64,000 bases of DNA from a virus (taxonomy: Duplodnaviria; Heunggongvirae; Uroviricota; Caudoviricetes; Crassvirales): IMG/VR virus record IMGVR_UViG_3300044716_000090, positions 40,813 through 104,812 of that record; one strand, 5' to 3'. The position numbers were made by a program, and so were the translations under genes. This document shows positions 4,856 to 27,630 of the stretch, one piece after another. The notes below the pieces were generated by a model that worked only from the letters and a program-made list of their open reading frames with translations, was not told the origin of the DNA and did no database searches. Within the stretch, counting starts at the first letter, position 1. Each line of letters begins with the position of its first letter.

Positions 4856-7429
4856 TTATTGGTAGGTTCTTCTAATTTCATCTTTCAAAGACTGAGGCAC
4901 TCTATCACTTTGCAAAAAGATATTTAATATATCGTTATCTGTAAATTTGGATATCTCAGCTTGAGCATTTTTAATATCTAGAGGTATATCATCTAACTGT
5001 AAATTCTTCCAACCAGAAGGTAACTTTAAGTTTAAGTTTAGATAGTTTAGTGCACTCATTTGATCCTTCTGTAGATCCCCTGTAACAGAAACTCTTTTTG
5101 TGTTAGAGAATGCTCTAGGCTGGAAGTATGACTTTCTAGGATCATTTGATGGGTTGGTGTTACCATCAAAGTGTTGTTGCACTTCTCTGATATTTTCTTC
5201 CTCATATGTTAAGTCTGTATTAGACTTAGGTAATTGACTAATCAATGTTGGTATTAAAGGAATAACTATTTCTTCACTACCCTTCTGCATTACTAAAAAC
5301 TTCTTATCTCCTTGAGTGAGTTTAGAATACATGATGCTTCCTTTATCTTTACCAATCAACCAGTTTTTAGCAGAGGCTGCTTGGTCTGTGCTTAATTCAG
5401 CAGCACCTCCAGGTTGAGAACCTGCCACACCTGTATAAGTGTTAAGGGCCATGTTAGCAAGAGTTTCTAATCTTTCTCTAGACTGAGCACCATCTTTACC
5501 TGAAACAATGATAGCCTGCATCTTAGGAATGTACTTACCAGTCTTTTCTAACAGTGAGTTTCTGAAAGTATCATCAAAAGTCTTTTTGCTATTTTCAAAC
5601 TGTTGAAGAATAGGTCTGTGTCTAGTGATGAGAGCATTTATTGTACGAGCAGCTTCTGGATTCTTAGAGCTGTTTTCTAATATATTATAGATTTCTTTCT
5701 CTTTACCATTTAAAGTTTTAGGATCTATATAATCCATTTGAGCTCCTTTGAACTTAAGGTCTTCCGCAGACTTTCCTGTAACTCTCTTAACTTTAGCAAC
5801 AAAGTCAGCAATCTCTTTATTTGTAAAGCTAACAACATTACCACTTGATGTTCTTATATTAGCACCTGGTAATTGAGCAACTGCTCTATTGTAAGCTTCT
5901 CTAGAAGCCATCACCTTTGGATCGTTGCTAACTTCTTTTTCAGTTTTAGTTAATAATGCATCAAGTCTATCAGCTTGTAACAAGTTTTCAACAGCCATGT
6001 CAGCCTTACCCCTATAGTCTACATTGATTTTATTTTTATCACCATTTTGATAGGCTGTTAATTTGTTCTGTGCTTCAGACAAACTAATTCCTAACTTATT
6101 TGCATAACTTTTAACAAAGTCATTATATTGAGACTTATATTCATCTCTGTCTTGTTGAATAGCAATAACAGGATCTTTTACTTGTGTAGATGTTCCAAGA
6201 TAGGTTTCAATACCACCAACATCACCATACACACTCTTTATCTGAAGATCAAGTTTTTGTTTTTCAATAGTGAGGTTTTGAGTATCCATAAACTTATCCC
6301 AAGAGAACTTTTGTTCAGATAAAGCTTGACTTCTCTTCCTTAGATTAAGATCTTCCACCTTAAACTTATAGTCTTGGTATGGATTATCTAAGATTTGTTT
6401 CTTTCTTTTCTCCCAAGAAAAGGCTTCAGCAAATGAATTAATAAACCCATTCTTGTAAATTTCAGCCTTAGCTTCATCAGGATTCTCAGTAACATATTTT
6501 AGCTCTCTAGCTAATTGTTCTGGTAAAGCAGATTTCTTATCTTTTAACTCTTGGATTGCATCTAATGTTTTATTATATTCTTCAGTGTCAGACTTACTAG
6601 CATTAGCATGTCCTTCCAACTTAGTAATCATTTCATTATATGAATCTTCTGTATTTTTGAATCTATCTTTAGCCACTCTACTTAAATCTTCAGGAGTAGC
6701 ATTTCTAAACTGATACCTACCTGATATAGCCAATTGATTAAGATCTGTAGGAGTCAAAGATGTGTTGATAGCATTTTGGATTTGGGTTGCTGTTACAGCC
6801 TCACCACTTATCCTAGTCATTACAGCTGCAATCTTTCCAACATTAACTGTACCATCAGCATTCATCTCCCAAGGAATATCTTCCTCTCTAACATTAGGAT
6901 TAATCTTACCAATCACATCTGTCATAATCTTCTTTCTAACATCAGTGTAAGGAGTGTATCTACCTCTAAATACTTGACCAGCTTTATCAGAAGATAACCA
7001 AGAATTAGCTTGTTTGTTAAAATCTTCAATGTTCTCTACAGAAGATTTACCATCTGCAATTGCTTTCTCCATCTCAGTTAGTTGTTTTCTATACCAAGCT
7101 GTAGAAGAAACAGCATTTTGAACATTTCGATCTTTGACAATTTGAGTAGCCATACCTCCAACAGAATTAACCAATTGTTGATTGGAGAAGTCACCAGCTG
7201 CTACTGTCTTCAAATTATTACCCAGTTGATTTAACTTTGATTGTAGATATTTTTTATCTGCATCATTAGCAACATCCATTCCAGCTATGTTGTCTATATA
7301 GCCTTGGATCTTTTGTACACCTTGGTCATATTGGGCTTGCTTTTGCATGCCAACTTGAACCATTGCCTCAATAGGCAATTGTTGTACGTAGGGGTTAAAT
7401 TGTGATATTTGGTCGGTAAATGAAGCCAT
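4856..7429 (-). CDS. Large virion protein (857 aa), coiled-coil rich, function unknown
   Basis: Long ORF in the six-frame track within a co-directional structural gene run. Lys/Glu/Gln-rich heptad-like composition. Confidence 0.7.
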   Translation of the reverse strand: MASFTDQISQFNPYVQQLPIEAMVQVGMQKQAQYDQGVQKIQGYIDNIAGMDVANDADKKYLQSKLNQLGNNLKTVAAGDFSNQQLVNSVGGMATQIVKDRNVQNAVSSTAWYRKQLTEMEKAIADGKSSVENIEDFNKQANSWLSSDKAGQVFRGRYTPYTDVRKKIMTDVIGKINPNVREEDIPWEMNADGTVNVGKIAAVMTRISGEAVTATQIQNAINTSLTPTDLNQLAISGRYQFRNATPEDLSRVAKDRFKNTEDSYNEMITKLEGHANASKSDTEEYNKTLDAIQELKDKKSALPEQLARELKYVTENPDEAKAEIYKNGFINSFAEAFSWEKRKKQILDNPYQDYKFKVEDLNLRKRSQALSEQKFSWDKFMDTQNLTIEKQKLDLQIKSVYGDVGGIETYLGTSTQVKDPVIAIQQDRDEYKSQYNDFVKSYANKLGISLSEAQNKLTAYQNGDKNKINVDYRGKADMAVENLLQADRLDALLTKTEKEVSNDPKVMASREAYNRAVAQLPGANIRTSSGNVVSFTNKEIADFVAKVKRVTGKSAEDLKFKGAQMDYIDPKTLNGKEKEIYNILENSSKNPEAARTINALITRHRPILQQFENSKKTFDDTFRNSLLEKTGKYIPKMQAIIVSGKDGAQSRERLETLANMALNTYTGVAGSQPGGAAELSTDQAASAKNWLIGKDKGSIMYSKLTQGDKKFLVMQKGSEEIVIPLIPTLISQLPKSNTDLTYEEENIREVQQHFDGNTNPSNDPRKSYFQPRAFSNTKRVSVTGDLQKDQMSALNYLNLNLKLPSGWKNLQLDDIPLDIKNAQAEISKFTDNDILNIFLQSDRVPQSLKDEIRRTYQ

Positions 7430-10731: not shown

Positions 10732-12162
10732 TTATTTATATTTGTTTAGCCAGCCACCGTTTTCTTTTTCAGGAACTACATCTTGAAAATCATCAGCATA
10801 ACTAACACCCTTACCAATTTTTAATGCTTTATTACTAGACTTATCTAATTTTGATAATCTACCTTTTTTAAATGGTACAAGATCTAATACAGCTTCACCA
10901 AAATCAATACCTGCATTTTTCCATTGACCATCAATAGCATATCTTAAGGATGTAGTAGCATCTGCTATAGAATTAAGAGCACCAATTCCTCTATTAACTG
11001 CAAACCCAATAGGGGTTCCTGCAAAAGGAATAGTTGCTAAATCTGCTGCAGATAATGTAGCTTTTATATTTTTTACAGCATCTGATGGTTCGTATCTTTT
11101 TTCTGGAATCTGACTAATTTCTTTTAGTGTAGGTTTTTTTAATTGCCCACCACCTTGATATTTATTTAACCATCCACCCTTTTTCATCATTGGGTATTCT
11201 GTAACATATTCACCATCAAAATCATAGTCTTCTCCAGGGTACATCATTTGTTGATCCCCTGTATCAGATATTCCTAGTACGGGATAATCTACCCCTTCCA
11301 TTGTTATGTCTGTAGATGGTATGATAGTTACTTCTCCTGGGTGTGCCCATTGTCCCATTGGGTCTACAATAGCTTCACCATCCTGAGCAATACTGTTAGG
11401 TTTGAAATCTAAACCTTCTTGGTAGAATTTCATCTCCTTACCATTCTGTGCAGAAGCTTTTGTCTTCTTTGCATACTTACCGTTACTAGGAGCTGAACCA
11501 GCTACACGTGCGTACGTAAATCCTACAGCACCTGGCATACTTCCACCCATAGCAAACTTAAGATAATCATATGTTTTCATAGGAGAAGGAAGTGGTTTAC
11601 CTTGCTCTACATATTTATGTCTTCTGTCAGCAAAATCTTGAGCAGACTGAATTGTTTTAAATGGACCACCTAATAATTCTCCTGTGTTGCGAAATTCTTT
11701 TTCTGGATCAGAAAAAAGTTTTCTATGTTTAAAACCAGGAACCAAATAGTATTCTCCATCTTTTCCTACTGTAGTAGAATATTCTGTTGAATATCCTTTC
11801 TCTTTTGGGTTCCATCCTACAGGTAACTTTGGATCATTTGGCTGTAAAAATGTTTTACCTAATATACCACCATCCTGAAACTGTCCACCCCATGCAGGAG
11901 AATAGTTTCTACCTTTGGTATTATATCCAAGACCTACAAAGTCAGGACCTACAGATGCTTGTACATCATTAGGATTAGGCTTCTTACCATAGTTATCAGT
12001 CTTTTGTTTTAATACCATTCCTCCTTGATCAAACTTATTTAACCAACCTCCATCTTCCATAGTGTTATCCTTTCCACATATGTGGCATACGTGCATGTCT
12101 TTCTTACTAGAATCTGATTTATTCCAGGAATGTCCACATGTGCATTTGATATCTTTAGCCAT
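10732..12162 (-). CDS. Virion protein (476 aa) with an N-terminal Cys/His zinc-ribbon-like motif and three GGWLNK[FY] repeats
   Basis: N-terminus CTCGH...HVCHICGK. Repeats DGGWLNKFDQGG, KGGWLNKYQGGG and ENGGWLNKYK. Its stop and start overlap neighbouring genes. Confidence 0.65.
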   Translation of the reverse strand: MAKDIKCTCGHSWNKSDSSKKDMHVCHICGKDNTMEDGGWLNKFDQGGMVLKQKTDNYGKKPNPNDVQASVGPDFVGLGYNTKGRNYSPAWGGQFQDGGILGKTFLQPNDPKLPVGWNPKEKGYSTEYSTTVGKDGEYYLVPGFKHRKLFSDPEKEFRNTGELLGGPFKTIQSAQDFADRRHKYVEQGKPLPSPMKTYDYLKFAMGGSMPGAVGFTYARVAGSAPSNGKYAKKTKASAQNGKEMKFYQEGLDFKPNSIAQDGEAIVDPMGQWAHPGEVTIIPSTDITMEGVDYPVLGISDTGDQQMMYPGEDYDFDGEYVTEYPMMKKGGWLNKYQGGGQLKKPTLKEISQIPEKRYEPSDAVKNIKATLSAADLATIPFAGTPIGFAVNRGIGALNSIADATTSLRYAIDGQWKNAGIDFGEAVLDLVPFKKGRLSKLDKSSNKALKIGKGVSYADDFQDVVPEKENGGWLNKYK

Positions 12163-13028
12163 TACTTGTAAGAGATTTGAGCAGGTGTGATAATGAATTG
12201 ACTTATTAAATGGGCATCTGATCTATCATCAAGGATGTGTCTCACCTTTAAATCCTTCGCACGTAGGGGTTCCTTTTTAAATGAACGTTTGCCATAATCC
12301 ATATTAGGTTGATTTACAATCTTATCTACAGATAATGAGTCACAACCAGTCACAAACAAAGGTACGGATTTATCTTTAACCAATGACCAGAATGTATTAT
12401 ATTGATAAAAATTATCTGATTTGGTAAACGTAATTGTCTTACTCTCAGCGTTATATACAGGATACTTCATGTATTCCTTGAGGTTGTTAATTGGCTTAGG
12501 AGCTAGTTCTAATATACCAGAAGACTGTTGTCCATTGTATAGAACAGCTTTATTGAAATAAACTGTGTTTGTTTCTATCTTAGCGTTATCATTAAACACA
12601 CCATCAGGGATAGGTAGGTATTTATATGCCTTAGTGTAATCCTTTACATTCTGTAAGATTTCATCAAAATACTCATAAGCAAATGGATACTCAATAACAT
12701 ATGGTTCTGTGTTTCCGTAGAACGTGTTGTAAATCATTGTATTAGTTAAATGTCTCCACAATGATGGGGTGTTTGTAGGAATAAACTCAATAGCTGCTAT
12801 ATCCGCAATACATAGTTCCTCTATAGGCATTTGTAATCTTGTCTTACATTTTCCTATAGATTCAATAATAATAACAGTAACATCATCACTCACCGAATAT
12901 GTAATTCCAGAAATAACTTGGCTCCTAGGAATGTTAGTTCCTAAGACATTTCCGTAATTATCAGAAATCTTAAACGGTCCAGTTCTAACACCAGCCTTTG
13001 TTAATTTTATTGTTATTACTTTAGACAT
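12162..13028 (-). CDS. Hypothetical structural protein (288 aa)
   Basis: ORF in track, co-directional, start overlaps the next gene. Confidence 0.6.
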   Translation of the reverse strand: MSKVITIKLTKAGVRTGPFKISDNYGNVLGTNIPRSQVISGITYSVSDDVTVIIIESIGKCKTRLQMPIEELCIADIAAIEFIPTNTPSLWRHLTNTMIYNTFYGNTEPYVIEYPFAYEYFDEILQNVKDYTKAYKYLPIPDGVFNDNAKIETNTVYFNKAVLYNGQQSSGILELAPKPINNLKEYMKYPVYNAESKTITFTKSDNFYQYNTFWSLVKDKSVPLFVTGCDSLSVDKIVNQPNMDYGKRSFKKEPLRAKDLKVRHILDDRSDAHLISQFIITPAQISYK

Positions 13029-13039
13029 ATATTAATTAA

Positions 13040-16000
13040 TTACGAAAGACATTGTTCTACAGCTGTTCCACCAGATAAAGTACAATCTGGTGCAGATGTT
13101 GTTGTTGTTGTTGTGGTTGGTGGTACAGTAGTTGTGGTTGTAGTAGTTGGAGGTATAGTTGTAGTAGTAGTAGTAGTTGGACTTGGACAGTTAGTAAATC
13201 CTGTTGCTGTAATTGCATACAATGTACCACCTGGATCTGTTGTTATAGATCCTGTAACTACCCACGTAATACCTGGAGAAGTTACCCTATCATTAATTGC
13301 AAATGTTCCAAATGGATACTCTTGAGAGTATGATATAGAGCTATTTGCACAGTTTGTTATTTGGTACCACACAGACAATGCGGTAGTAGTGGTAGTTGTT
13401 GTAGGAGTAGCTCCACAAGCTGTTGTACAATCAGCGTTTGATGGAGCTCCATCTAAATCAACATCATATGTTGGTCCAGATACTACAGTTTGAATTTGGT
13501 ATGTAAATGAGCCCACCTTATAATATAAGCCATCAATTGTTGATAATGAAGTACTTGATCTACCCACTACATCAGGTAATACACGATTACAGTTATCATT
13601 ACAATCAAATTTTCTGAGCGAATAGTAATAATACGTTATTGCAGTAGTGGTAGTAGTTGTTGTTGGTACAGGTGGGATTGTAGTAGTAGTGGTTGTTGTA
13701 CTGCTACTAGAACTTGTAGTTGTTGTAGTGGTTGGTGAAACAGTTGTGGTAGTAGTAGTTGTACTAGAACTAGTTGTTGTAGTTGTAGTGGTTGGACACT
13801 GTTCTACAGCTGTACCAAATACACAACAAGGATCAATTGCTGTACCCTCTAATGTACAATCTACACATAAGTCAACTGCTGTACCCACTAATCTACAATC
13901 TATTGTTGTTGATGTGGTTGTTGTGGTTGTGCAATTAGGAAGCTCAGAGAAAGCAATTGCTTCTAGGTCACATCCACCATTCAATCCAGAATAGAAGAAG
14001 TTATTCTCAGCAATGTAGAAGTTAGGAATGTAGCTATGGAAGCTTATCCAACTCTTTGTATTCATGCTGAATGATAGAGTCCATGACTTATTACAGAAGT
14101 ATTCTTGGTCATAAACACTAACGGTTGTCTTCAATGTGCTACCACCTAGCACTCTTTCTACATAGAATTCCTTAGTTGTAGCATCGTATTTGATGTTCTT
14201 ACTATTAGGAATATAATCTAGTTTAGATATAATAACCCTGTCATACTTACTATCAAACACTCCATGTAAGCCAATACCATTGTAATGGTTATCTACATTT
14301 ACATTAGGGAAGTGACGTAAGATTTCAAATGCTAAATGGTCTGTAAAGAACTTATTAAGTCCTGAACCAAATGCTGACAAATCTGTAGCTTGGTTACCTG
14401 CAATTAAGAACACTTGTCCTCTCTTAGCATCTACAGTGATTTGTCCTTGAGGAATCTTTAACAACATCTTATTCTGACTTCCTACATATCCAAGGTCTGT
14501 TTCTGCAAAGTCAATTGGAGGAGCACTCTTGAATAATGTATCGTTTCCTAGGTAGGCAGCTTGTGGATTGCTAGTTTGAACTGTAAGCATTGTATTGTAT
14601 AACAATGACTTGTTCTCAAATCTAGCTAACACAGCTTTGTTCTGAATACCATCTAATGATACAAGATTACCAAAGTTTTGAGGGAAATCAAAGAATGATG
14701 TAGCTCTGTAGATTAACCAGCTATTCACTCTGTTATCAGCATACACATCCTGAGGATCTGAATAAACAGCTCTGAATGGATACTTAGTGTAACAAAGTTG
14801 TTCTGCCCAATCTGCAGGAAGATGTGTAAATGTATTCTCTTTGTTTTGTTTAGAATACGTTACATTATAATAATATGTATTATCAAAAGCAATAGGCACC
14901 ACTGATTCCTGTAACCAGTTATCAGGAATACCAGAGCTCACGTGTGGGAAGAAGTCACCTTCTAAACTATTAAATGCTTGACGTAAGTCTACATTTATAG
15001 AAGATTCACAATAGAAAGAAGGAATACCATAAGCAAATAGATACATCTTTCCATCATAGAAAGTTCTATTAGGATTTACTATAGCAGGTCTAAAAGGAGT
15101 TGCTCTACGTGGTTCAGGATTTTGGTTATTAGGACAGTCAAAGTTATGAGCCTTATAAGAAATCATATTCTTTAACACCTCACCAGTACTTAATGTATAA
15201 TCTTGTAACACTGATCTAGCTGAGTGCCAGTATTGTGGATAACCCACATTACCCACCTCATCATAGAATATATCACTATCATCAGGAGCATTCACCCTAT
15301 CATCAAAGAAGAAAGGTAATTTGGTCTTAAATGCAAACCTACTAATAAATGTATCTCCACCAAACATAGTGGCTGATTTAGGGGTAGAGAACATTAAATT
15401 GTTAATGTCAATACTTTCCTGGAATCCTGTATCAATTGTATCATAAGAGTATATCTGACCCCATTGGTTAACAAATATATTCTTTAATGATCCATAGTAA
15501 GAAACTACATTGATAGATTCATTCTTACTAGGTACAGAACAGTTGTTCTTTTGTGATATTGTAAATCTTGATGTATCAGAGATACCACTTACACCACCAA
15601 CTAATAAACTATTAGTTTGATTAGGGAATGGTAAAGGTATTACAGATGAACCATCTCTAGTGCCAATTGTTTTTAGGTATACAGATGATTCTCTATTATA
15701 GTTATTAAAATCATGTAAATCAGCTACAGACTGCACACCTGGTATAACGTATTGATACTTATCTAGTTGTCTTTGTTTGATTCCTAGATTGTTATCAATA
15801 GCTCCACTGTAATCATAACTAGCTATTGAGTTAAATGAATAAGCATAGTTTCTTCTGGTGATTCCATTTATGTAAATTGTTAGGTATGCCTGATATGCAG
15901 CAAACATAGCTGATGCACTAAATGGTGTTGTTATACGACCAATACCCTCACTAGATTGAAGAGCATCACGCTGAGCCTCTGCTGTAAGAAGCTTATACAT

Positions 16001-18367
16001 TGCGTTCTTCTTAACTTCTACAAAGTGAGCTATACCAGCACCAAACATTACATTCTCTAACTTAAGAATAGATCCTAAGAAAGGTTGTCCAAAAGAAGTT
16101 TCAGGTGAGTTAAATACCATTCTGTACTTAGACTCATCTGTAGCAAACGCATCTAATTTATCAGGATGGCAAAGTGAGTTCTTTGTTGCATTTATAGTGA
16201 TACTATAACTAGCTGTTCCAGATAAGTAGATAGGATTGGATACTGAGTTAACTTGTTGTAATCCATTACCAGTAACTGTAATTTGTCTAAATACAGTTGT
16301 TAATGGATCTTGGTATTGAAACACTGTACTATTAGCACTAGTAAGGTTATAAGTATTATAATTAACTACAGAGATTGTAGCTGCTCCACTTACAATTACA
16401 GGAGTGCTTAATGAACATATTTTATTTGTAGTTCCAAAAATTAACGTTTCAGTTTTTGTTGCATTTGAAAAACAATCTGTATATTGTACTACAGTTGCTG
16501 TAGTGGTAATTATATTATATGTAATACACTGATCAAGATAGCCATTATTATTCTCAAGAATAAACTCATCCTTATTAAGATCGTTATATGGATAGTTAGG
16601 GAAATAGAATTCTGTTTCTTCTCTTTTGTATTTACCTACGTTTCTAAGGATACCCTTAGCCACAATAGATTTGTTTGTACCTCTATCTCCTCTTACAATC
16701 TTAAATCCTGCAATGCTTTCTTTCTGTGCTTGTGTAAGATTAGATGAATACACCAAGTATGAAACTTGTTGAACATCAATCTTTACACCCATTGGAAATA
16801 CAGCATCACTTTGCATCACTGGAGAAAATCCTGACCCTAGTGTGTATGTAGGACTTTCAAATATAGGACTTACTAATACATCAGGAAACTTGTGATGTCT
16901 AATAGGTTGACCAGCAAGATTTCCCCATACATCTATGTTACATGGATAGGTGTCTGTTGATTCCCAATAAGCAAACTCACCATATTGGTAAGGTCCTTTG
17001 TATGATTGATCTGTTGTGTATCCAGGAGAAAACGATGTTACTGAACCTGTGTTATAAATCTTCCAATAAGGAGCACTTGTTCCTTCTCCAATAAAATCAG
17101 GATTAGTACTAGGAACATCTGGTTGAGAACCTTCGTTAGCACTAATCATTCTACCTGGAATGTGGAAACCATCTGTTTGCTTACCATTACTTAATAGAAA
17201 CACTATCTCAAAAGCATACACTTCATCTCTTAGATAACCTCTAAGGTTTGTAGCATTTAGCTCATCAGCATAAGTTTCTGTACTAGGGATTCTATATGTT
17301 TCCCATTTAAGATCAATTTGGCTAGCAATCTGTTGATAGTTAATTCTATCAATAGAAGTTAAGTTATCCCAGATAAGGATATCTTGTGCAGTGGTTAAGT
17401 CTTGAGCTACCTCATAGTAAGGATATTTCTCAAATATGTCAGCAATTGTAAGACGAATCTGTGTAACATTCTGTCCTGTATAAGTTATCTCTCTAGTGTT
17501 ATCTTCTATAAAATATGTTCCAATCAACTCTACAGAAGATATACTGTTTACTGTTTTAATTACAGCAATATTAAAATAATCAAATTTTCCAGTGGTATCT
17601 AAATTAGCAACACTAACTATAATAGATTTACCCACTTGATAGTTAAAATCTAGTGTGGTAACTTGTGTGTCAGCAATAGGTGTAGGGTTGGTAATAGAAT
17701 AGTAAGATGTAAATGGATTACCAGCAGCATCACAATATTGGATGGCAAACTGATATGTACCAGCAGTGAGGTCACCACCATTTCTAACATCAGTTACATC
17801 TAATGAAGGAATGCTAAAATTAGGCTGAACGTTTAATTGATTGCAATCAAGTTCAGTGGTGTAAATAGGATTACACAAATCAGCATTAGGAGCTAGTTTA
17901 TATGGAACATTATTTAGGTCTATATATCTTCTAGGATTAAGACCATCTGTCCAATACACCTCTGTAGTGCAGTTTGTAATCTTGTGAACAGCTTTAAGAA
18001 TAGGATAGTTTATATCAAAGTTTAAACAAGGTGCACTAACCAATATACGGTAGATGCAATCATTGTTATCCATATATCCAATGTGGCTATCTCCCGTTTC
18101 AGGATTAACTAGAAAGAATATGTGTTTGTTCTTTTCAACAATGAAATGAGTTCCTATTAAATGGAAGTTTGTAGGAAAGTTTAGACATAGCTCGTTCCCT
18201 GGCTCATTCTGATAGTTTACAGAATCTGAGTCAAAGTTCTCAACAGATGCATTTAATGCATAAGTTAGCTTACCTTTAGGAACCTGATTTACAGATTGAT
18301 CTAAATTTAAGCCAGCAGTAGCATTGTTATACTCTTGTTTAATATTAGTTGTTTCTTCTCCAGCCAT
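13040..18367 (-). CDS. Giant tail fibre/adhesin-like protein (1775 aa) with a C-terminal region of poly-Thr/Ser linkers and repeated Cys-bracketed CxLxGTA[VI]xxC motifs
   Basis: ORF in track. The C-terminal 330 aa contain several T7-T10 tracts and the motifs DCRLVGTAVDLC, DCTLEGTAIDPC, CVFGTAVEQC and DCTLSGGTAVEQC. The DNA repeat gttctacagctgt occurs near 13048 and 13805. Confidence 0.75.
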   Translation of the reverse strand: MAGEETTNIKQEYNNATAGLNLDQSVNQVPKGKLTYALNASVENFDSDSVNYQNEPGNELCLNFPTNFHLIGTHFIVEKNKHIFFLVNPETGDSHIGYMDNNDCIYRILVSAPCLNFDINYPILKAVHKITNCTTEVYWTDGLNPRRYIDLNNVPYKLAPNADLCNPIYTTELDCNQLNVQPNFSIPSLDVTDVRNGGDLTAGTYQFAIQYCDAAGNPFTSYYSITNPTPIADTQVTTLDFNYQVGKSIIVSVANLDTTGKFDYFNIAVIKTVNSISSVELIGTYFIEDNTREITYTGQNVTQIRLTIADIFEKYPYYEVAQDLTTAQDILIWDNLTSIDRINYQQIASQIDLKWETYRIPSTETYADELNATNLRGYLRDEVYAFEIVFLLSNGKQTDGFHIPGRMISANEGSQPDVPSTNPDFIGEGTSAPYWKIYNTGSVTSFSPGYTTDQSYKGPYQYGEFAYWESTDTYPCNIDVWGNLAGQPIRHHKFPDVLVSPIFESPTYTLGSGFSPVMQSDAVFPMGVKIDVQQVSYLVYSSNLTQAQKESIAGFKIVRGDRGTNKSIVAKGILRNVGKYKREETEFYFPNYPYNDLNKDEFILENNNGYLDQCITYNIITTTATVVQYTDCFSNATKTETLIFGTTNKICSLSTPVIVSGAATISVVNYNTYNLTSANSTVFQYQDPLTTVFRQITVTGNGLQQVNSVSNPIYLSGTASYSITINATKNSLCHPDKLDAFATDESKYRMVFNSPETSFGQPFLGSILKLENVMFGAGIAHFVEVKKNAMYKLLTAEAQRDALQSSEGIGRITTPFSASAMFAAYQAYLTIYINGITRRNYAYSFNSIASYDYSGAIDNNLGIKQRQLDKYQYVIPGVQSVADLHDFNNYNRESSVYLKTIGTRDGSSVIPLPFPNQTNSLLVGGVSGISDTSRFTISQKNNCSVPSKNESINVVSYYGSLKNIFVNQWGQIYSYDTIDTGFQESIDINNLMFSTPKSATMFGGDTFISRFAFKTKLPFFFDDRVNAPDDSDIFYDEVGNVGYPQYWHSARSVLQDYTLSTGEVLKNMISYKAHNFDCPNNQNPEPRRATPFRPAIVNPNRTFYDGKMYLFAYGIPSFYCESSINVDLRQAFNSLEGDFFPHVSSGIPDNWLQESVVPIAFDNTYYYNVTYSKQNKENTFTHLPADWAEQLCYTKYPFRAVYSDPQDVYADNRVNSWLIYRATSFFDFPQNFGNLVSLDGIQNKAVLARFENKSLLYNTMLTVQTSNPQAAYLGNDTLFKSAPPIDFAETDLGYVGSQNKMLLKIPQGQITVDAKRGQVFLIAGNQATDLSAFGSGLNKFFTDHLAFEILRHFPNVNVDNHYNGIGLHGVFDSKYDRVIISKLDYIPNSKNIKYDATTKEFYVERVLGGSTLKTTVSVYDQEYFCNKSWTLSFSMNTKSWISFHSYIPNFYIAENNFFYSGLNGGCDLEAIAFSELPNCTTTTTTSTTIDCRLVGTAVDLCVDCTLEGTAIDPCCVFGTAVEQCPTTTTTTTSSSTTTTTTTVSPTTTTTTSSSSSTTTTTTTIPPVPTTTTTTTAITYYYYSLRKFDCNDNCNRVLPDVVGRSSTSLSTIDGLYYKVGSFTYQIQTVVSGPTYDVDLDGAPSNADCTTACGATPTTTTTTTALSVWYQITNCANSSISYSQEYPFGTFAINDRVTSPGITWVVTGSITTDPGGTLYAITATGFTNCPSPTTTTTTTIPPTTTTTTTVPPTTTTTTTSAPDCTLSGGTAVEQCLS

Positions 18368-19268
18368 ATCTGTAGCTTCTATTTGGTAATTCGTATCTGT
18401 TAAATCTATTCAAATCCTGTATTATTCTTCGTTGCTTAGTCCAAGCATCTTGCTTCTTCACCTCAATATCAGCCATGATAAATGCTTCATCAGCCATCTG
18501 TTTATAGTTCATCATCTTTCTTTCTAGCTGATTATATGTTTCATCGTTAGTTTGATTAGTAAGAGTTTCCATCATTTTGTATTTGATGAAAGCCTCAACA
18601 AACTCTCTAATACGATAGTTATCTGGAATCAATTCATTACCCACTCCATCATAAGCTGTAGAATAGAACACTAAGTGAACTACACCATTTCTAAAATTAG
18701 TAACAAACTTGTTATCTCTAATGTCAAATGAGTCAGCAGCAGAGCTACCAAAGTTTGCACACTGTAAATCACAATGTGCTTTAACAGATATGTTACCTGG
18801 CTTTAATAGGTATTGTCTGTGGTATTCTACAGCCACTTGTTGATTGGTCTTATATACAGCTTGAATAAGCTCAGGCATGCACGTAGGACAACCTGTTGTA
18901 CATTCTAGATTGGTACAAGGAGCTCCTCCAGAAATAACAGGACTCACCTGTATTGTTGTCTGTGAAGCAGCTTGAGAATAGAATGAGTTAGCTGTTTGAT
19001 AAGGATAACCAGGAATTGATGTACATAACCAAGCTTCTCTTACAGCAAAGAAGTTATCAGGAAGCCTAGCTTCAAAGTCCTCAATATATAGAAGCTGTTC
19101 GCTAATAACATAAGAAGACCTTCCTAGTTTCCTAAGACATTTATCCAGGTATGTAGGGAATAACAAATCATCTACAGCACCTGTATCGAAGTAGCTTTTA
19201 AACTCTTCTTTCACAGTCGCATAGACAGGCTCAGGGGAGATGAAGTTATACTTGTAGTAATATGACAT
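18345..19268 (-). CDS. Hypothetical virion protein (307 aa), Cys-rich segment
   Basis: ORF in track. Contains GGAPCTNLECTTGCPTCMPE. Confidence 0.6.
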   Translation of the reverse strand: MSYYYKYNFISPEPVYATVKEEFKSYFDTGAVDDLLFPTYLDKCLRKLGRSSYVISEQLLYIEDFEARLPDNFFAVREAWLCTSIPGYPYQTANSFYSQAASQTTIQVSPVISGGAPCTNLECTTGCPTCMPELIQAVYKTNQQVAVEYHRQYLLKPGNISVKAHCDLQCANFGSSAADSFDIRDNKFVTNFRNGVVHLVFYSTAYDGVGNELIPDNYRIREFVEAFIKYKMMETLTNQTNDETYNQLERKMMNYKQMADEAFIMADIEVKKQDAWTKQRRIIQDLNRFNRYELPNRSYRYGWRRNN

Positions 19269-19273
19269 TTATT

Positions 19274-19750
19274 TTATTTTTTCCACTCTCTATAAATATG
19301 TTGATATTGATCGTTGGTTTTTAGGTAGTGAGATAACAACCTTGAGGTTGTACGAGAAGGTTTAAAGTACCAGAGTTTCATGTTCTTGAATCTGGCAGAC
19401 TCTCTAAACCACATCCATCCGAAGAAATATCCTTCAGTGTGGTAATTAAAATTGTAGATGATTTTACCCTTCTCTTTAGACTTCTTCCAATCTACTGGTA
19501 AGTTAACAAACTCCTTACCATCGATGGTTTTCATCTTTTTTCTTTTCTTCTTATTAATAGAGAACTCACCAAAACCAAAAGGAAGTCTAGCTTTCTCTCC
19601 TGTTTCTAGGATGTAGTTCTTAAAACTCTCATTGTACAAATAGATTATATTTCTCCATTGGTCAAATGAGATTTTTATAGAAGGGTTCTTTTTACAGAAA
19701 TTATTGTAGTTTTCTTTACTGGAGCTTCTCCAATCAACTTTTGTTCGCAT
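19274..19750 (-). CDS. Hypothetical basic protein (158 aa)
   Basis: ORF in track. Lys/Arg/Trp-rich. Its start is adjacent to the upstream gene's stop at 19750. Confidence 0.5.
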   Translation of the reverse strand: MRTKVDWRSSSKENYNNFCKKNPSIKISFDQWRNIIYLYNESFKNYILETGEKARLPFGFGEFSINKKKRKKMKTIDGKEFVNLPVDWKKSKEKGKIIYNFNYHTEGYFFGWMWFRESARFKNMKLWYFKPSRTTSRLLSHYLKTNDQYQHIYREWKK

Positions 19751-20475
19751 TAGTTAGCATTAGTTGTGTTTGGTGCTTGACCATCCACCCCATCTTGCGT
19801 TTGATCTGTCTTCAGTCTGAAGTACGTAGATAATAGCTTTTGAGATGTAAGTTCTAGCACTTGCTTTTCTAAATATCCAGGGCAGCCATATTCTTTATCT
19901 AGAGGATTTTTACAATAGTCTTCTAGATTAATATTATCACTGCAGCAGCACTCAGCAAACATGATCTCATTAGGAACATCTTCTTCAAAGAAAGCAGCAA
20001 TTCTAATAGCTTGTAACAAAGGGTTATTTACGTATAAGTAACCATTTGAAATCCAATAGTATTGTTCGTTCTTGATGATTGGAAGTTTTAAGAGATTGAT
20101 ATATCTATTGATAGTAATCTCTTTCAACTTTTTGCCTTGTCCACTCATTGCGTTTATTGAATAAACACCTTGAATGATATATTGGTAATTACCCTCGCAT
20201 ATACGAGGAAGTTTAAATTTTGTTCTAGCAACTGTGCAAGGATCCACATAATCACAACATTCAGAAATAGGAACTTCTACCAATTCCAAACAAGGAATGG
20301 TAGTAAACAAAGTATCAGTAGCCCAAAGCTTTCTGAGATTTGTTTCACGTTTTACTAATAAAAGTGTGTTGTTCTTAATCTCAGATGCCACCACTCTATC
20401 AGTGATGAGGTTATCTGTTGATAACAATTTGTGCATTGCACGCACATCTGAAACTAATTTCCTTAAAGTTGCCAT
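19750..20475 (-). CDS. Hypothetical protein (241 aa)
   Basis: ORF in track. Shares start/stop junctions with both neighbours. Confidence 0.55.
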   Translation of the reverse strand: MATLRKLVSDVRAMHKLLSTDNLITDRVVASEIKNNTLLLVKRETNLRKLWATDTLFTTIPCLELVEVPISECCDYVDPCTVARTKFKLPRICEGNYQYIIQGVYSINAMSGQGKKLKEITINRYINLLKLPIIKNEQYYWISNGYLYVNNPLLQAIRIAAFFEEDVPNEIMFAECCCSDNINLEDYCKNPLDKEYGCPGYLEKQVLELTSQKLLSTYFRLKTDQTQDGVDGQAPNTTNAN

Positions 20476-21725
20476 TATAAATACTGTTTGAATATATTTG
20501 TCATTCCCTCAGCTTGATCGATTAAGAATGCTGTCACCTCACCTTTAGACATCGTGTGACCCATCTTATCATCCCAAAGGCTCTTAGCATTTGAGAAAGC
20601 TGGAATTTGGTAAAATTTAATACCGTTAAAGTCATGACTCACTTCGTGATGTTTATCTCCTGTGAATATATAGAAGTTATGGTGGAATGACCATTGGTCT
20701 CTATATTCTATTGGGAATAGTGCTGCAAGTTTAGCTGGCTTAATCGCATCCCCATGATTGAACATTAATGCTGAATTGCCGTAACTTACATACTTTCTAT
20801 ATTTAGGAGAATCATCAATTGTAAGTCTGTCTGTATTTCTAAAATATGTTTGTAACCAATTAACCATATGCCATCCTACAAACTCATCATGATTACCAGC
20901 TACATACACCACATTAACATGTTTAGCATGCTGTAATAACATTGTAATCATTAACACCTCATGGTTACATATATACTCAAATGAAGTGTGGTATGTATGT
21001 GTATTCTGTTGAGGGGTTCCTTTTGTAGTTGCATTAGTGTATTCACTATTAAACTCATCAGAGCCAATAATGTATGTAATCTCTTCTAGGTTGTTTGAAA
21101 GTTGAGCCTGTGTAGCTATCACATCCACCTTATACATAATCTTAGCCATTCTACTTGTTACATCATTATCACCATCTACATCCCATTTGTTTAAATGAGA
21201 GTCTTGTTTGTTGATAATTAACATACCGTTTGGTCTCTCTGGAAAGAACTTAGGACTCATAACTTCCTGACTAACAGGCTGATATGAAGCTAAAAAGTCT
21301 ACGAAGCTATCTTGAAATACTTGCTCTGTAGACTTCTTTCCTAACCATGCTTTAACTTGCCAATGGGGATTAGTTCCATTCCCCCAGAAGTTCTGTACAT
21401 ATTTAGTTATTTCCCACTTATCTGTGTCTATGTGACACTTCTCAATTAGTTCATCTAAGCTTTTAACTTCTTCGCTAAAGTTAGCTACTACCTCTCCTGT
21501 ACCCTTGCTTATATCCTCTGTAAACTTGATGATTACATTCTCTAGTTCAGCAATGTAGTTTCCAACCTCAGCATCTTCCTCACTCTTCTCTTGATTTCTT
21601 AACTCATTTAATAACTCATCCACCTCTAGTTCTGTAATTCCAAGCTTATCAGCATAGAACTTTTTACTCTTTTTCCAATGTAGGATCTCTTCTAGCTGTT
21701 GCAGCAAGGATTGATTTTCAGGCAT
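20475..21725 (-). CDS. Calcineurin-like metallophosphoesterase (416 aa)
   Basis: Contains VVYVAGNHDEF, the GNH[DE] signature of the metallophosphatase fold. An upstream His/Asp-rich stretch is consistent with metal-binding motifs. First gene after an intrinsic terminator and an AT-rich gap. Confidence 0.65.
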   Translation of the reverse strand: MPENQSLLQQLEEILHWKKSKKFYADKLGITELEVDELLNELRNQEKSEEDAEVGNYIAELENVIIKFTEDISKGTGEVVANFSEEVKSLDELIEKCHIDTDKWEITKYVQNFWGNGTNPHWQVKAWLGKKSTEQVFQDSFVDFLASYQPVSQEVMSPKFFPERPNGMLIINKQDSHLNKWDVDGDNDVTSRMAKIMYKVDVIATQAQLSNNLEEITYIIGSDEFNSEYTNATTKGTPQQNTHTYHTSFEYICNHEVLMITMLLQHAKHVNVVYVAGNHDEFVGWHMVNWLQTYFRNTDRLTIDDSPKYRKYVSYGNSALMFNHGDAIKPAKLAALFPIEYRDQWSFHHNFYIFTGDKHHEVSHDFNGIKFYQIPAFSNAKSLWDDKMGHTMSKGEVTAFLIDQAEGMTNIFKQYL

Positions 21726-21919: not shown

Positions 21920-22531
21920 TTATGATGTATACTCTAATAATACAATGTCGCTTGTAGTAAAGGTTTTGTTGTTAAATGTATATGTACCACTTGCAGTTAC
22001 TGAAATTTGTTCATTTAATATACCATTGATATATAATGATAAAGTTGACGCAAGTGTGTAATTTGATATATCAACAATTACTGGTTCAGTTGTTAAACTT
22101 GCAAGTCCTGCAACCACTGCCTGACCCGTTGTAACAGGGAAAGAACCTGAGTTTATGAAATAAAATGATGCACCACCCGTAGTATAAACATTATCTATTT
22201 GTCCACTACCTGCTGGATTGCTTATTGTAAAGCTACCAACACCAGTTGTTGTTGTTGTGGTTGTAGTAGGAGGAGGAGTTGCAGTGGTTGTTGTAGTAGT
22301 TGTTGTAGGACATGGTACCACAGATAAATCTGTATAGTTTGTACAGGCTCCTGTAGACATAACACGAACGATTGTTGTACCATTAGGAACTAATGTAGAT
22401 GTGTATCCAGCCAATAGACTAGATCTTGACACACCTGTTTCAAAAGGAACAGAGTATGAGTCTACATTTGAATATAGACTGAATGGTCCTGTTGAAGAAC
22501 CTGCTGTTGTTAATGTAATTAATACTGTCAT
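21920..22531 (-). CDS. Fibre/adhesin-like protein (203 aa) with poly-Thr linker
   Basis: ORF in track. Contains CPTTTTTTTTATPPPTTTTTTTTG. Thr/Ser/Gly-rich beta-like composition. Confidence 0.6.
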   Translation of the reverse strand: MTVLITLTTAGSSTGPFSLYSNVDSYSVPFETGVSRSSLLAGYTSTLVPNGTTIVRVMSTGACTNYTDLSVVPCPTTTTTTTTATPPPTTTTTTTTGVGSFTISNPAGSGQIDNVYTTGGASFYFINSGSFPVTTGQAVVAGLASLTTEPVIVDISNYTLASTLSLYINGILNEQISVTASGTYTFNNKTFTTSDIVLLEYTS

Positions 22532-26898: not shown

Positions 26899-27630
26899 CT
26901 ATTCGTTTGTCTGAATTCTAAGTTGAGCACTTTGAACAGCAGATTGGTTCTCTGTGTACATTGCTAGATTCTGAACTGTTAAGTCTAACAACTCATCTTC
27001 CAGGTATGTCTCAAGTTCACAATCAGCATCGTATGAGTCTTGTCCATCTAACATTACATATCCAGTCTTGTTAATGTACACTGGGTATCTCATGTAAGAT
27101 ATGTATATTTTCTTAGGGGTAAATGTACCGTCAGTAAATATAGAGATCTCATCAGAAGATAGGGAGTTGAAAGTTTCTTGATATTCAAATGATGGTTTAT
27201 AATGAGTGTTAGTTAAACAAAATTGCAAATCGCCATGTTTAGACAAATCTCTATTAATCCATATCTTTCTATCTTTACACAAACCTTTATCCGCAATTAC
27301 ATAACTATCTATATAGAACATGTACTTTGGAGTGAGTTGGTGTATTCCAGCTGCCCATTGATTTAATTCAGCATTCTTGACAGTTAAGTCAAGGGGTTGA
27401 TGGTTATAAGTTACCACCAAACTTTGTAGGTCCTCGTAACGCTTCTTGAAAGCATCTAGACCTAGACCAGAAATTGTGTTTTGACCATCAACCTTTTGTT
27501 TGATCAATTTGATCTGAGCCTCATTCAAGGCTAAAATCTTATCTTCTAATTGAATCTGTTGGTGTTCGTTCGTTGATAGTTTATTTAGTTTCTGGTCGAT
27601 TTTATATAATAAACTATCTACGGGTATCAT
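26899..27630 (-). CDS. Hypothetical structural protein (243 aa)
   Basis: ORF in track. Start overlaps the upstream gene (27627/27630). Confidence 0.55.
   Translation of the reverse strand: MIPVDSLLYKIDQKLNKLSTNEHQQIQLEDKILALNEAQIKLIKQKVDGQNTISGLGLDAFKKRYEDLQSLVVTYNHQPLDLTVKNAELNQWAAGIHQLTPKYMFYIDSYVIADKGLCKDRKIWINRDLSKHGDLQFCLTNTHYKPSFEYQETFNSLSSDEISIFTDGTFTPKKIYISYMRYPVYINKTGYVMLDGQDSYDADCELETYLEDELLDLTVQNLAMYTENQSAVQSAQLRIQTNE

What the first reader, a model, noticed from the sequence alone, without database searches (positions are those of the whole stretch)
13040..14030. C-terminal receptor-binding-like region of the 1775-aa fibre built from Cys-bracketed mini-domains on poly-Thr stalks, with evidence of recent internal duplication
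Four copies of a C-x-L-x-G-T-A-[VI]-x-x-C motif are separated by runs of 7-10 Thr/Ser. The DNA around 13048 and 13805 shares a near-identical 20-nt segment (gttctacagctgt-cc), indicating cassette duplication. The same Thr-linker architecture recurs in three other genes (21920..22531, 22554..23567, 25729..26871), including a 5x30-bp tandem repeat. Such modular, repeat-driven tips are candidates for receptor switching. Poly-Thr linkers are typical targets of O-glycosylation in Bacteroidota.
Basis: seen in the sequence. Interest (0 to 1): 0.55.

Follow-up and report, generated by a model that had tools for sequence, protein, structure and literature searches.

The report
Hypervariable poly-threonine arm on split phage muzzle
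The flagged region is not the tip of a fibre: it is a fast-changing, threonine-tethered string of small binding-type modules, inserted where an uncultured crAss-like phage has split its conserved tail-tip "muzzle" protein into two genes, and it shows how such phages may swap surface-binding parts.

Summary
The four Cys-x-L-x-G-T-A-[VI] motifs are real and non-random. Three of them abut each other, though, and are not separated by poly-Thr.

The 1775-aa protein is a homologue of the crAss001 muzzle protein gp44, not a fibre. In five homologues one polypeptide runs straight from "..FFYSG" to "..LWRH..". Here, and in all 68 related metagenomic loci with both anchors, that hairpin is interrupted by three things:
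- a variable tail (28-1011 aa);
- a stop codon, a short spacer and a start codon;
- a conserved 88-aa "TGPF" domain.

Tails differ between nearly all relatives. A contig identical in 2.3 kb of flanks differs only inside the tail, including a 225-nt loss of domain B. Domain B sits in three different poly-Thr genes in different genomes.

Best reading: six flexible display arms per virion carry exchangeable adhesin modules, and the poly-Thr DNA acts as recombination joints. Binding function is inferred, not shown. The Bacteroidota O-glycosylation idea is not supported (no sequons), but relatives encode GT2 glycosyltransferases, so phage-driven glycosylation stays open. This is a new variant of modular receptor-binding architecture.

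The parts
13982..18367 (-). Body of the muzzle-protein homologue (aa 1-1462), the N-terminal fragment of a split gene
   Evidence: A family profile hits crAss001 gp44 (7qok_A) at E 9.2e-13. tblastn finds homologues in Leptolyngbya phage Lbo-JY46, csAssE-Sib (annotated 'Muzzle protein'), and Cellulophaga and Flavobacterium phages. All of those alignments stop at aa 1462-1476.
13931..13981 (-). Junction peptide NGGCDLEAIAFSELPNC (aa 1463-1479). It is the first residues past the point where homologues continue into the C-terminal domain, and it is a degenerate copy of the Cys repeat.
   Evidence: Conserved as N[GE]GCDLEAIA..E[IV]P in close relatives.
13796..13897 (-). Three abutting DCxLxGTA[VI] repeats (aa 1491-1524), preceded by a T/S run (aa 1480-1488, 13904..13930)
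   Evidence: Repeat number ranges from 0 to 6 among relatives.
13643..13795 (-). Linker block (aa 1525-1575): three T/S runs of 17, 18 and 7 residues punctuated by VSP and IPPVP. Contains a 30-nt tandem repeat at 13714..13796.
13403..13642 (-). Domain A (aa 1576-1655), a small mainly beta domain with a short helix and CxxxC...CxxxC
13382..13402 (-). T7 linker between domains A and B
   Evidence: Lies inside the 225-nt indel 13166..13390 relative to L086.
13178..13381 (-). Domain B (aa 1663-1730), a small beta-barrel with two invariant Cys; a mobile cassette
13085..13177 (-). Distal linkers (aa 1731-1761): T7-IPP-T7-VPP-T7S-APD. Contains a 30-nt tandem repeat at 13101..13181.
   Evidence: 13 mismatches to L086 fall at 13096..13160, most of them in this stretch.
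13040..13084 (-). C-terminal fourth repeat CTLSGGTAVEQC, then LS and the TAA stop
   Evidence: 13 of the 55 distinct tails end with a motif within their last 18 residues, seven of them in the ..PAP[DES]C.L..GTA.E.CP(S) form seen here. Relatives such as L007, L012 and L013 lack it.
13029..13039 (-). 11-nt spacer (TTAATTAATAT) between the two fragments
   Evidence: Read directly from the sequence: further in-frame and out-of-frame stops rule out read-through or a simple frameshift. In loci with no extra ORF in between, the spacer is about 1-26 nt.
12765..13028 (-). 'TGPF' domain (aa 1-88 of the 288-aa protein). Conserved, absent from fused homologues, and paralogous to the N-terminal anchor of ORF 21920..22531.
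   Evidence: Found in 75 loci. BLASTP against the ORF203 N-terminus gives E 4e-9.
12162..12764 (-). C-terminal ~200 aa of the muzzle protein, encoded as a separate gene (aa 89-288)
   Evidence: Aligns to the last ~190-200 aa of Lbo-JY46 (E 5e-25), FpV4 (3e-17), phi17:2 (5e-7) and csAssE-Sib. The alignment begins 2-6 residues after the point where the big protein's alignment ends. Also matches phrog_15100 positions 1589-1781 of 1783.
21920..22531 (-). Paralogous display gene: TGPF anchor, two T8 linkers and a unique cargo domain
   Evidence: Homologues lie between the two muzzle fragments in 14 or more relatives.
22554..23567 (-). Second display gene: conserved 100-aa anchor, a (T7-x-T-P) linker array and two cargo domains nearly unique to this genome
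18345..19268 (-). Ring protein 1 gene immediately upstream (synteny with crAss001 gp43-gp44)
   Evidence: Pfam CrAss_Ring_1, E 1.5e-10, 41.4 bits against a cut-off of 27. Gene numbering follows PMC10172136.

Best explanation
Window 13040..14030 encodes a hypervariable display arm grafted onto the tail-tip (muzzle) complex of an uncultured crAss-like phage.

Anatomy (shown):
- crAss001 gp44 and four other homologues have a tight turn between two beta-strands late in the protein (gp44 about residues 1232-1238). By position this is probably in the C-terminal part of the propeller.
- At that point this lineage carries three things: a tail, then a stop plus 11 nt plus a start, then an 88-aa TGPF domain fused to the remaining ~200 residues.
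- The muzzle subunit is therefore made as two polypeptides from tightly coupled genes.
- The tail consists of ~11-residue DCxLxGTA repeats next to the body, about 100 residues of poly-Thr/Ser(-Pro) linker in eight runs, two small Cys-pinned beta domains (A and B), and a last repeat copy at the C-terminus.

Function (inferred):
- gp44 is a hexamer, so a virion would carry six such arms. Each has a contour length of roughly 30 nm.
- The arms present exchangeable small binding modules that make first, reversible contacts with host-surface structures, probably glycans. This tunes adsorption or host range.

Evolution (shown as a pattern; mechanism inferred):
- Modules are gained, lost and swapped between the muzzle tail and at least two other virion genes built as 'conserved anchor + poly-Thr + cargo'.
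- Breakpoints fall in the low-complexity poly-Thr-coding DNA, which acts as recombination joints.
For: Identity and split:
- A profile of the family hits gp44 (7qok_A) at E 9.2e-13. The alignment runs colinearly across the junction, with gp44 1192-1304 matching '..SFhSYiPnyY..FYsG....glWsH..YqvFYGe.yPF'.
- In Lbo-JY46, phi17:2 and FpV4 the big protein's aa 1462-1464 and the small protein's aa 89 align 2-6 residues apart on a single chain. csAssE-Sib behaves the same way.
- All 68 related loci with both anchors are split. The spacer is about 1-26 nt in loci with no extra ORF in between.

Hypervariability:
- Tails are 28-1011 aa, with 55 distinct versions.
- 55 of 55 pairs with 90-95% identical flanks, and 16 of 20 pairs at 95-98%, differ in tail length.
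- L086 has 0 mismatches over 13643..15100 and over 12001..13039. All 33 mismatches and 3 indels, including the 225-nt loss of domain B, lie within 13096..13568.

Cassette mobility:
- Domain B is found in three different genes in close relatives.
- Anchors are conserved in 57-76 loci, while the cargo domains are essentially unique to this genome.
- Extra TGPF + poly-T + cargo genes sit between the two fragments in 14 or more loci.
- Poly-T-coding DNA forms a dispersed repeat family across four genes.

The modules are real domains:
- AF2 gives pLDDT 93.9 for B and above 90 for A.
- Invariant Cys pairs are present.
- Hits reach 161 clusters at E<=1e-3; locally that is 54 A-domains in 53 proteins and 125 B-domains in 98. 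Two of the carriers match a PHROG 'virion structural protein' family of other phages.
- In the viral structure library the only matches at E<=0.001-0.004 are uncharacterised proteins, at least one from an uncultured Caudovirales phage. No relative was found in 185,579 species genomes.

Plausibility of exposure and disulfides: the crAss001 muzzle sits at the tail tip and its tail parts are disulfide-stabilised (PMC10172136).
Against: - Where the insertion point lies on the muzzle surface (outside, or towards the ring) was not determined. The third stretch of the gp44 alignment is weak on its own (i-Evalue 0.97).
- A separate gene, 23587..24699, carries tail-fibre C-terminal homology and may be the main receptor-binding protein.
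- Some relatives carry linkers with no cargo at all (L006, L008, L009, L011). The arm therefore need not carry a binding module to be kept.
- Host and virion are uncultured, so copy number and reach are extrapolations.
Confidence: 0.6

Rival explanations
1. Mucin-like glycosylated stalks. Phage-encoded glycosyltransferases O-glycosylate the poly-Thr runs in the cytoplasm, as in mycobacteriophage virion glycosylation or bacterial serine-rich-repeat adhesins. The main role of the arms would then be a glycan coat (stiffening, protease or aggregation resistance, shielding, or stickiness), with the small domains secondary.
For: - Thr/Ser-rich tails or linkers occur on four virion genes.
- A close relative (L088, same contig as L006) encodes Glycos_transf_2 (45 bits against a cut-off of 23.3), a hexapeptide sugar acyl/acetyltransferase, and a second GT2. 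These lie about 4-6 kb beyond the window's right end.
- A GT2a homologue is present in 33 of 50 relatives with enough flanking sequence and is absent from the cultured relatives that lack the arms.
- Several relatives keep linkers without any cargo.
- Precedent for phage-encoded virion glycosylation comes from my own knowledge (Freeman et al. 2023); papers citing it were found.
Against: - No glycosyltransferase is found among 45 ORFs of the window itself.
- 17 of 50 relatives show none in the same place, and at least some of these (L100/L057 and L149/L019, which share contigs) still carry poly-Thr tails.
- The GT2 matches are generic, far below any equivalog cut-off. Phage GT2s often act on host polysaccharide or lipid carriers.
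- There is no Bacteroidota sequon.
- This reading does not explain the rapid turnover of folded cargo domains.
Confidence: 0.3
2. Non-host adherence (BAM-like). The arms stick virions to particles, extracellular polymers or non-host surfaces, raising encounter rates rather than determining which host is infected.
For: - The same cargo families decorate several different virion proteins, and virion proteins of other phage families.
- Cargo in relatives includes generic adhesion-type modules, such as a DUF1566-like domain and propeller repeats.
- The modules are small and weakly conserved, like accessory decoration domains.
Against: - The arm is placed on the tail-tip complex rather than on the capsid.
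- Strain-level replacement of modules suggests an arms-race type of selection.
- The domains are not Ig-like.
Confidence: 0.25
3. Mainly structural. The Cys repeats and the TGPF domain exist to clamp the two halves of the split muzzle subunit together, for example as a disulfide-laddered mini-solenoid or through inter-subunit cross-links. The rest of the tail would be tolerated baggage.
For: - The repeats and the TGPF domain flank the split point on either side, and both are conserved while everything distal varies.
- crAss001 tail parts are disulfide-stabilised.
- 13 of the 55 distinct tails end with a motif within their last 18 residues, so the repeat recurs at the very C-terminus. This could let the end fold back onto the repeat block.
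Against: - Four loci have no repeat at all and are still split (L038, L040, L044, L072).
- Repeat number varies from 0 to 6.
- This reading does not explain why in-frame folded domains on long linkers are kept in almost every genome.
- No structure prediction of the repeat block was made.
Confidence: 0.2
4. One reading: this is the receptor-binding tip of a tail fibre, generated by a recent internal duplication.
For: Repeated motifs and a shared 14-18-nt segment. The region is variable.
Against: - The protein is the muzzle homologue, and it matches no tail-fibre family in Pfam or PHROGs.
- The true C-terminus of the family is in the next ORF.
- Both motif copies are old and shared by relatives.
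Confidence: 0.03

Closest known systems
Muzzle protein gp44 of Bacteroides phage crAss001 (PDB 7QOK/7QOL/8CKB; Bayfield et al. 2023, PMC10172136)
   Same: Homologous body (profile E 9.2e-13). Same gene position after the ring-1 gene. Colinear match across the junction. Length variation by insertions is already noted for this family.
   Different: gp44 is one 1371-aa chain, and its reported insertions lie in the crass and IG2 domains. Here the interruption is late in the protein (by position probably the C-terminal propeller part), the gene is split into two ORFs, and a poly-Thr arm plus a TGPF domain are added. No fused homologue examined has either addition.
Modular receptor-binding proteins with a conserved N-terminal anchor and exchangeable C-terminal domains, such as Klebsiella phage depolymerase/RBP systems and T-even or lambdoid fibre tips (own knowledge; for example 10.64898/2026.05.12.724579 and PMC12654880, listed)
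   Same: Conserved anchor with variable distal modules. Modules are exchanged horizontally between genes and phages. Close strains differ in their modules.
   Different: The carrier is the muzzle (nozzle-type) protein, not a fibre or spike. The joints are long homopolymeric Thr linkers rather than conserved structured adaptor domains. The modules are 60-80-aa domains with no enzymatic or known receptor-binding fold.
Thr/Pro-rich linkers joining carbohydrate-binding modules in cellulases and cellulosomal proteins, and serine-rich-repeat adhesins of Gram-positive bacteria (own knowledge)
   Same: Beads-on-a-string design: small beta domains on extended hydroxy-amino-acid linkers. Relatives of domains A and B also use PT-type linkers. 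Possible O-glycosylation.
   Different: Those are secreted cellular proteins, whereas this is a virion protein presumably assembled in the cytoplasm. No homology of the domains to known carbohydrate-binding modules was found.
Glycosylated C-terminal extensions of capsid and tail-tube proteins in mycobacteriophages (Freeman et al. 2023; own knowledge, cited by papers found)
   Same: Ser/Thr-rich extensions on virion proteins, together with phage-encoded glycosyltransferases in the lineage.
   Different: Glycosylation is untested here. The GT genes lie outside the window and are not universal. The arms also carry folded domains.
Accessory Ig-like decoration domains on phage virions (Hoc-type, 'BAM' model; own knowledge)
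   Same: Small accessory beta domains displayed on virion surfaces, likely weak binders.
   Different: Not the Ig fold. Tethered by long linkers. Sited on the tail tip.

Membership tests
crAss-type muzzle protein (gp44 family) | Sequence homology to gp44 | tested here: met
   A profile of 10 homologues hits 7qok_A at E 9.2e-13 in three colinear stretches. The single sequence alone found nothing.
crAss-type muzzle protein (gp44 family) | Gene lies in the crAss-type tail module, directly after the ring-1 gene | tested here: met
   CrAss_Ring_1 at 18345..19268, Ring_2 at 19750..20475, Ring_3_4 at 26899..27630, Crass_capsid at 28756..30309.
crAss-type muzzle protein (gp44 family) | One polypeptide carrying the ring-joining domain, the complete seven-blade propeller, IG1/IG2 and the crass domain | tested here: not met
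   The last ~200 residues are encoded by a separate ORF, 12162..13028, after a stop and 11 nt. The fold of the individual domains was not modelled.
crAss-type muzzle protein (gp44 family) | Hexamer closing the tail tip | not testable with these tools
   Needs a multimer model or cryo-EM.
Tail fibre / receptor-binding fibre | Homology to fibre or spike families, or fibrous repeat architecture | tested here: not met
   No Pfam family at all. PHROGs gives only 'virion structural protein'. Tail-fibre homology is found instead in 23587..24699.
Substrate of the general Bacteroidota O-glycosylation system | D-(S/T)-(A/I/L/V/M/T) sequon | tested here: not met
   0 sequons in the 313-aa tail, against 4 in the 1462-aa body.
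Substrate of the general Bacteroidota O-glycosylation system | Protein exported to the periplasm of a Bacteroidota host | not tested
   Virion proteins are normally assembled in the cytoplasm (established knowledge). The host phylum is unknown: the closest cultured relative by capsid and muzzle proteins is a Leptolyngbya cyanophage.
Phage-encoded virion glycosylation (mycobacteriophage type) | Phage-encoded glycosyltransferase(s) | tested here: inconclusive
   None in the window. Two GT2 genes and an acyltransferase are present in a close relative, and GT2a is present in 33 of 50 relatives.
Phage-encoded virion glycosylation (mycobacteriophage type) | Glycan attached to Ser/Thr-rich extensions of virion proteins | not testable with these tools
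   Needs mass spectrometry.
Diversity-generating retroelement target | Reverse transcriptase plus template/variable repeat pair with adenine-specific changes | tested here: not met
   No RT family among 45 window ORFs. Variation is by cassette replacement and indels.
Ig-like virion decoration domains | Immunoglobulin-like fold | tested here: not met

The most novel reading that the evidence does not exclude
The locus may be a phage 'adhesome'. In this reading the DCxLxGTA repeat block at the split point and the TGPF domains form a docking system, comparable in logic to cohesin-dockerin. Free TGPF + poly-Thr + cargo proteins (ORF 21920..22531 and the extra genes that sit between the two muzzle fragments in relatives) would plug onto the muzzle through it. 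The result would be a combinatorial, quickly re-shuffled and possibly glycosylated set of tethered binders on a two-chain propeller that complements in trans. The C-terminal repeat copy would fold back onto the block and close the arm into a loop.
Probability: 0.15. Interest if true: 0.8.

Novelty: new variant of a known kind. Interest (0 to 1): 0.6.

Why it matters
Crassvirus-like phages are abundant, yet how their tail tips recognise cells is largely unknown. For crAss001 the muzzle has only been proposed to contact the cell surface.

- This lineage shows that the conserved muzzle can be split in two and used as a chassis for exchangeable, tethered modules.
- Turnover is visible even between contigs whose flanks are identical.
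- It defines two phage-restricted domain families (A and B), an anchor domain (TGPF) and an ~11-residue Cys repeat. None of these has a Pfam match.
- It points to poly-Thr-coding DNA as a natural 'domain-shuffling joint'.

If binding is confirmed, this gives a handle for predicting host range in uncultured aquatic phages and a simple template for engineering display arms on phage tails. If the linkers are glycosylated by the lineage's GT2 enzymes, it would extend virion glycosylation well beyond actinobacteriophages.

Tried and rejected
- PDB sequence search with the single 1775-aa protein gave no hit. A profile of the C-terminal fragment alone also gave none. Only the full-length family profile reached gp44.
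- Near-identical DNA in cultured phages: none.
- Pfam on every sub-domain (repeat block, A, B, TGPF, three cargo domains, the inner insertion) gave nothing usable. Pfam on eight long carriers of A or B gave nothing.
- The afdb50 library was unavailable.
- Domain B in 185,579 species genomes: no relative.
- Docking idea: repeat count against TGPF-domain count per locus gives Spearman 0.26, p 0.03, without correction for relatedness. This is too weak to use.
- Frameshift or read-through joining the two ORFs was rejected, because stops occur in all three frames of the 11-nt spacer.
- Assembly artefact or pseudogene was rejected, because the split is kept in all 68 loci and in independent assemblies.
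- DGR was rejected.
- Genome walk towards the missing ~45 kb: one query hit a promiscuous DUF6321 domain and returned unrelated contigs. Exact-match look-ups reached only short contigs on the right side.
- Literature: nothing found on poly-Thr linkers in phage tail proteins or on Lbo-JY46.
Full report
**What is at the coordinates**

The region lies in a minus-strand gene, 13040..18367, encoding 1775 aa. The last 313 residues (aa 1463-1775, window 13043..13981) read, in order:
- NGGCDLEAIAFSELPNC;
- a T/S run;
- CRLVGTAVDLC-VD-CTLEGTAIDPC-CVFGTAVEQC;
- three T/S runs (17, 18 and 7 residues);
- an 80-aa segment;
- T7;
- a 68-aa segment;
- three more T7-8 runs;
- APD-CTLSGGTAVEQC-LS-stop.

The four motifs are the only ones in the six-frame translation of the window, and 8 of 20000 shuffles of the tail produce even one. 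The tail is 31% Thr and 5% Cys, against 8% and 1.2% in the body.

The core observation therefore holds, with three corrections:
- Three motifs are tandem rather than separated by Thr runs.
- Two globular segments were overlooked.
- The shared DNA is 14 nt exact (18 nt with one mismatch) and simply encodes the same TAVEQ peptide.

**What the protein is**

The window is a crAss-like phage. Pfam finds Crass_capsid (28756..30309), a P22-type portal (32264..34849), and ring proteins 1, 2 and 3/4 (18345..19268, 19750..20475, 26899..27630).

The 1775-aa gene follows the ring-1 gene, as gp44 follows gp43 in crAss001 (PMC10172136). Evidence that it is the muzzle homologue:
- tblastn finds homologues in Leptolyngbya phage Lbo-JY46, in csAssE-Sib (annotated 'Muzzle protein'), and in Cellulophaga and Flavobacterium phages.
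- A profile of the family hits the solved muzzle protein gp44 (7qok_A) at E 9.2e-13.

It is the muzzle protein, not a fibre. A different gene, 23587..24699, carries tail-fibre C-terminal homology.

**The key finding: an insertion that split the gene**

All cultured-phage alignments stop at aa 1462-1476. The next ORF, 12162..13028 (288 aa), matches the C-terminal end of the same PHROG family that the big protein matches at its N-terminus.

Pairwise comparison shows that big aa 1462-1464 and small aa 89 align to positions only 2-6 residues apart on a single chain in Lbo-JY46, phi17:2 and FpV4. The csAssE-Sib muzzle protein behaves the same way.

In the gp44 alignment the profile runs colinearly through the junction: '..SFMSYegVPAMFN-VSSEFYA-FK----DGKMWEQFAG--DYNMFFGEYKPF..'. 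The site therefore corresponds to a tight turn at about gp44 1232-1238. That is late in the protein and, by position, probably in the C-terminal part of the propeller (inference from the domain limits in PMC10172136). This third stretch is weak on its own (i-Evalue 0.97).

Between the two halves this genome has the 313-aa tail, then TAA, then 11 nt with stops in the other frames, then ATG, then an 88-aa domain absent from all fused homologues.

**Relatives**

A scan of IMG/VR gave 242 relatives, of which 80 were kept (57-89% identity; contigs up to 114 kb).
- In every one of the 68 loci that contain both anchors, the gene is split at the same place.
- The 88-aa 'TGPF' domain is conserved in 75 loci.
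- The tail ranges from 28 to 1011 aa, with 55 distinct versions, all containing T/S runs.

Close relatives (83-89% identical bodies) carry very different tails:
- domain B only;
- a different domain;
- two extra repeat units;
- linkers with no domain at all.

More distant relatives carry large propeller-repeat or other cargo. Turnover is fast:
- All 55 pairs whose flanks are 90-95% identical differ in tail length.
- 16 of 20 pairs at 95-98% differ in tail length.
- 2 of 7 pairs at 98-99.5% differ in tail length.

**A strain-level event**

An exact-match look-up of the small protein found contig L086 (ENA ERZ27292209), where the big protein is 1702 aa instead of 1775. Aligned to the window, it has:
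- 0 mismatches over 13643..15100;
- 0 mismatches over 12001..13039;
- all 33 mismatches and 3 indels within 13096..13568.

Those differences break down as 19 mismatches and two small indels in domain A, a 225-nt deletion (13166..13390) that removes one T7 linker plus domain B, and 13 mismatches at 13096..13160 in the distal linker region. This is a recombination tract confined to the arm.

**Cassettes move between genes**

Domain B lies in the muzzle tail in the window, L007, L010 and L012. It lies in the homologue of ORF 22554..23567 in L009/L055, and in the homologue of ORF 21920..22531 in L013.

Those two genes have conserved anchors (57 and 76 loci) followed by poly-Thr and cargo that differs in nearly every genome. 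Some copies end after the linker ('..TTTTTTTIP').

The ORF 21920..22531 anchor is a paralogue of the TGPF domain (E 4e-9). In 14 or more relatives, one or two such TGPF + poly-T + cargo genes sit between the two muzzle fragments. The poly-Thr-coding DNA forms a dispersed repeat family across four genes, and tandem 30-nt units occur within it.

**The modules**

- In the viral structure library, the only matches to domain B at E<=0.001-0.004 are uncharacterised proteins, at least one from an uncultured Caudovirales phage.
- Exhaustive HMMER found 161 clusters. Locally this is 54 A-domains and 125 B-domains. In the sequences read they sit on poly-T or PT-type linkers, and two carriers match a PHROG 'virion structural protein' family of other phages.
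- None was found in 185,579 species genomes.
- No sub-domain has a Pfam match.

The repeat, defined on 128 instances, is [DN]-C-x-[LI]-x-G-T-A-[VI], spaced 10-13 residues apart, with 0-6 copies per tail. In 13 of the 55 distinct tails a motif lies within the last 18 residues.

**Glycosylation**

The tail has no D[ST][AILVMT] sequon, and no glycosyltransferase occurs among 45 window ORFs.

However, about 4-6 kb beyond the window's right end a close relative encodes a GT2, a hexapeptide sugar acyl/acetyltransferase and a second GT2. A GT2a homologue is present in 33 of 50 relatives and is absent from cultured relatives.

Phage-driven glycosylation of the linkers is therefore possible but untested. 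The host phylum is also open, since the capsid protein matches only a cyanophage among cultured phages.

**Interpretation**

Shown:
- a split muzzle gene;
- a conserved repeat block and TGPF domain at the split;
- long poly-Thr linkers;
- folded phage-specific modules;
- rapid cassette turnover, with the L086 breakpoints and the cassette boundaries in relatives lying in linker DNA.

Inferred:
- six arms per virion (gp44 is a hexamer);
- about 30 nm of reach, from roughly 100 linker residues;
- a role in reversible binding to host-surface structures.

Rival or complementary readings are a glycosylated mucin-like coat, non-host adherence, and a purely structural clamp.

Known systems share the logic of 'conserved anchor plus exchangeable distal domain'. 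The carrier (a two-chain muzzle), the homopolymeric joints and the modules are new, hence 'new variant of a known kind'.

Noticed in passing
L088:17971-19811 (contig IMGVR_UViG_3300044614_000224, about 4-6 kb beyond the window's right end): Cluster of Glycos_transf_2, a hexapeptide sugar acyl/acetyltransferase and a second Glycos_transf_2 in a close relative. A GT2a homologue is present in 33 of 50 relatives. None is present in the window itself.
   Followed up: partly
window 16124..16558 (big protein aa 604-748): A second lineage-specific insertion relative to Lbo-JY46: two ~60-aa beta-rich, Cys-containing repeats. It is more divergent among close relatives (52-79% identity) than the body (~87%). 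It probably lies in the IG2/crass region, where length variation is already known.
   Followed up: partly
window 1..4847 and beyond (L248:12583-22574): A 3720-aa ORF follows 4856..7429 and runs off the left end of the window. Given its place after the putative cargo genes, it is probably the giant virion-packaged protein (RNA polymerase-like) of crAss-type phages.
   Followed up: no
window 31731..32261: An SPFH/Band 7 domain protein (Pfam E 4.9e-27) sits inside the structural module between the portal and capsid genes. This is unusual for a phage head module.
   Followed up: no
window 23587..24699: A 370-aa protein with a Cys-rich N-terminus and C-terminal homology to tail-fibre or tail-protein PHROGs (E 5e-18 and 2e-13). 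It is a better candidate for the true fibre or receptor-binding protein.
   Followed up: no
window 20475..21725: A DNA-repair-exonuclease-like gene (phrog_704, E 1.8e-45) sits in the middle of the tail genes, between the ring-2 gene and the poly-Thr display genes.
   Followed up: no
window 13647..13994, + strand: A 115-aa GTG ORF rich in poly-Val. It is the antisense shadow of the poly-Thr codons, not a gene.
   Followed up: yes
L019/L082 tails; L009/L011 ORF337-like genes: Cargo in relatives includes long propeller-type repeats ('GG.FT.YNG....I.RLN.DG..D..F') and a DUF1566-like domain ('GYSDWYLPS..EL'). The arms can therefore carry large, bacterial-type adhesion modules.
   Followed up: no
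window 25729..26871: A 380-aa virion-module protein with no family match ends in a cargo-less S/T linker (..TSTTSTTTTIWPSTSTTTTLIP). This resembles the truncated '..TTTTTTTIP' ends seen in relatives.
   Followed up: partly
L085, L248: The window's sequence occurs 100% identical over 3 kb in JGI sample 3300043437. The same contig is deposited in NCBI assembly GCA_043532145.1 (JBFDOX010001593.1), which might give a binning-based host lead.
   Followed up: no
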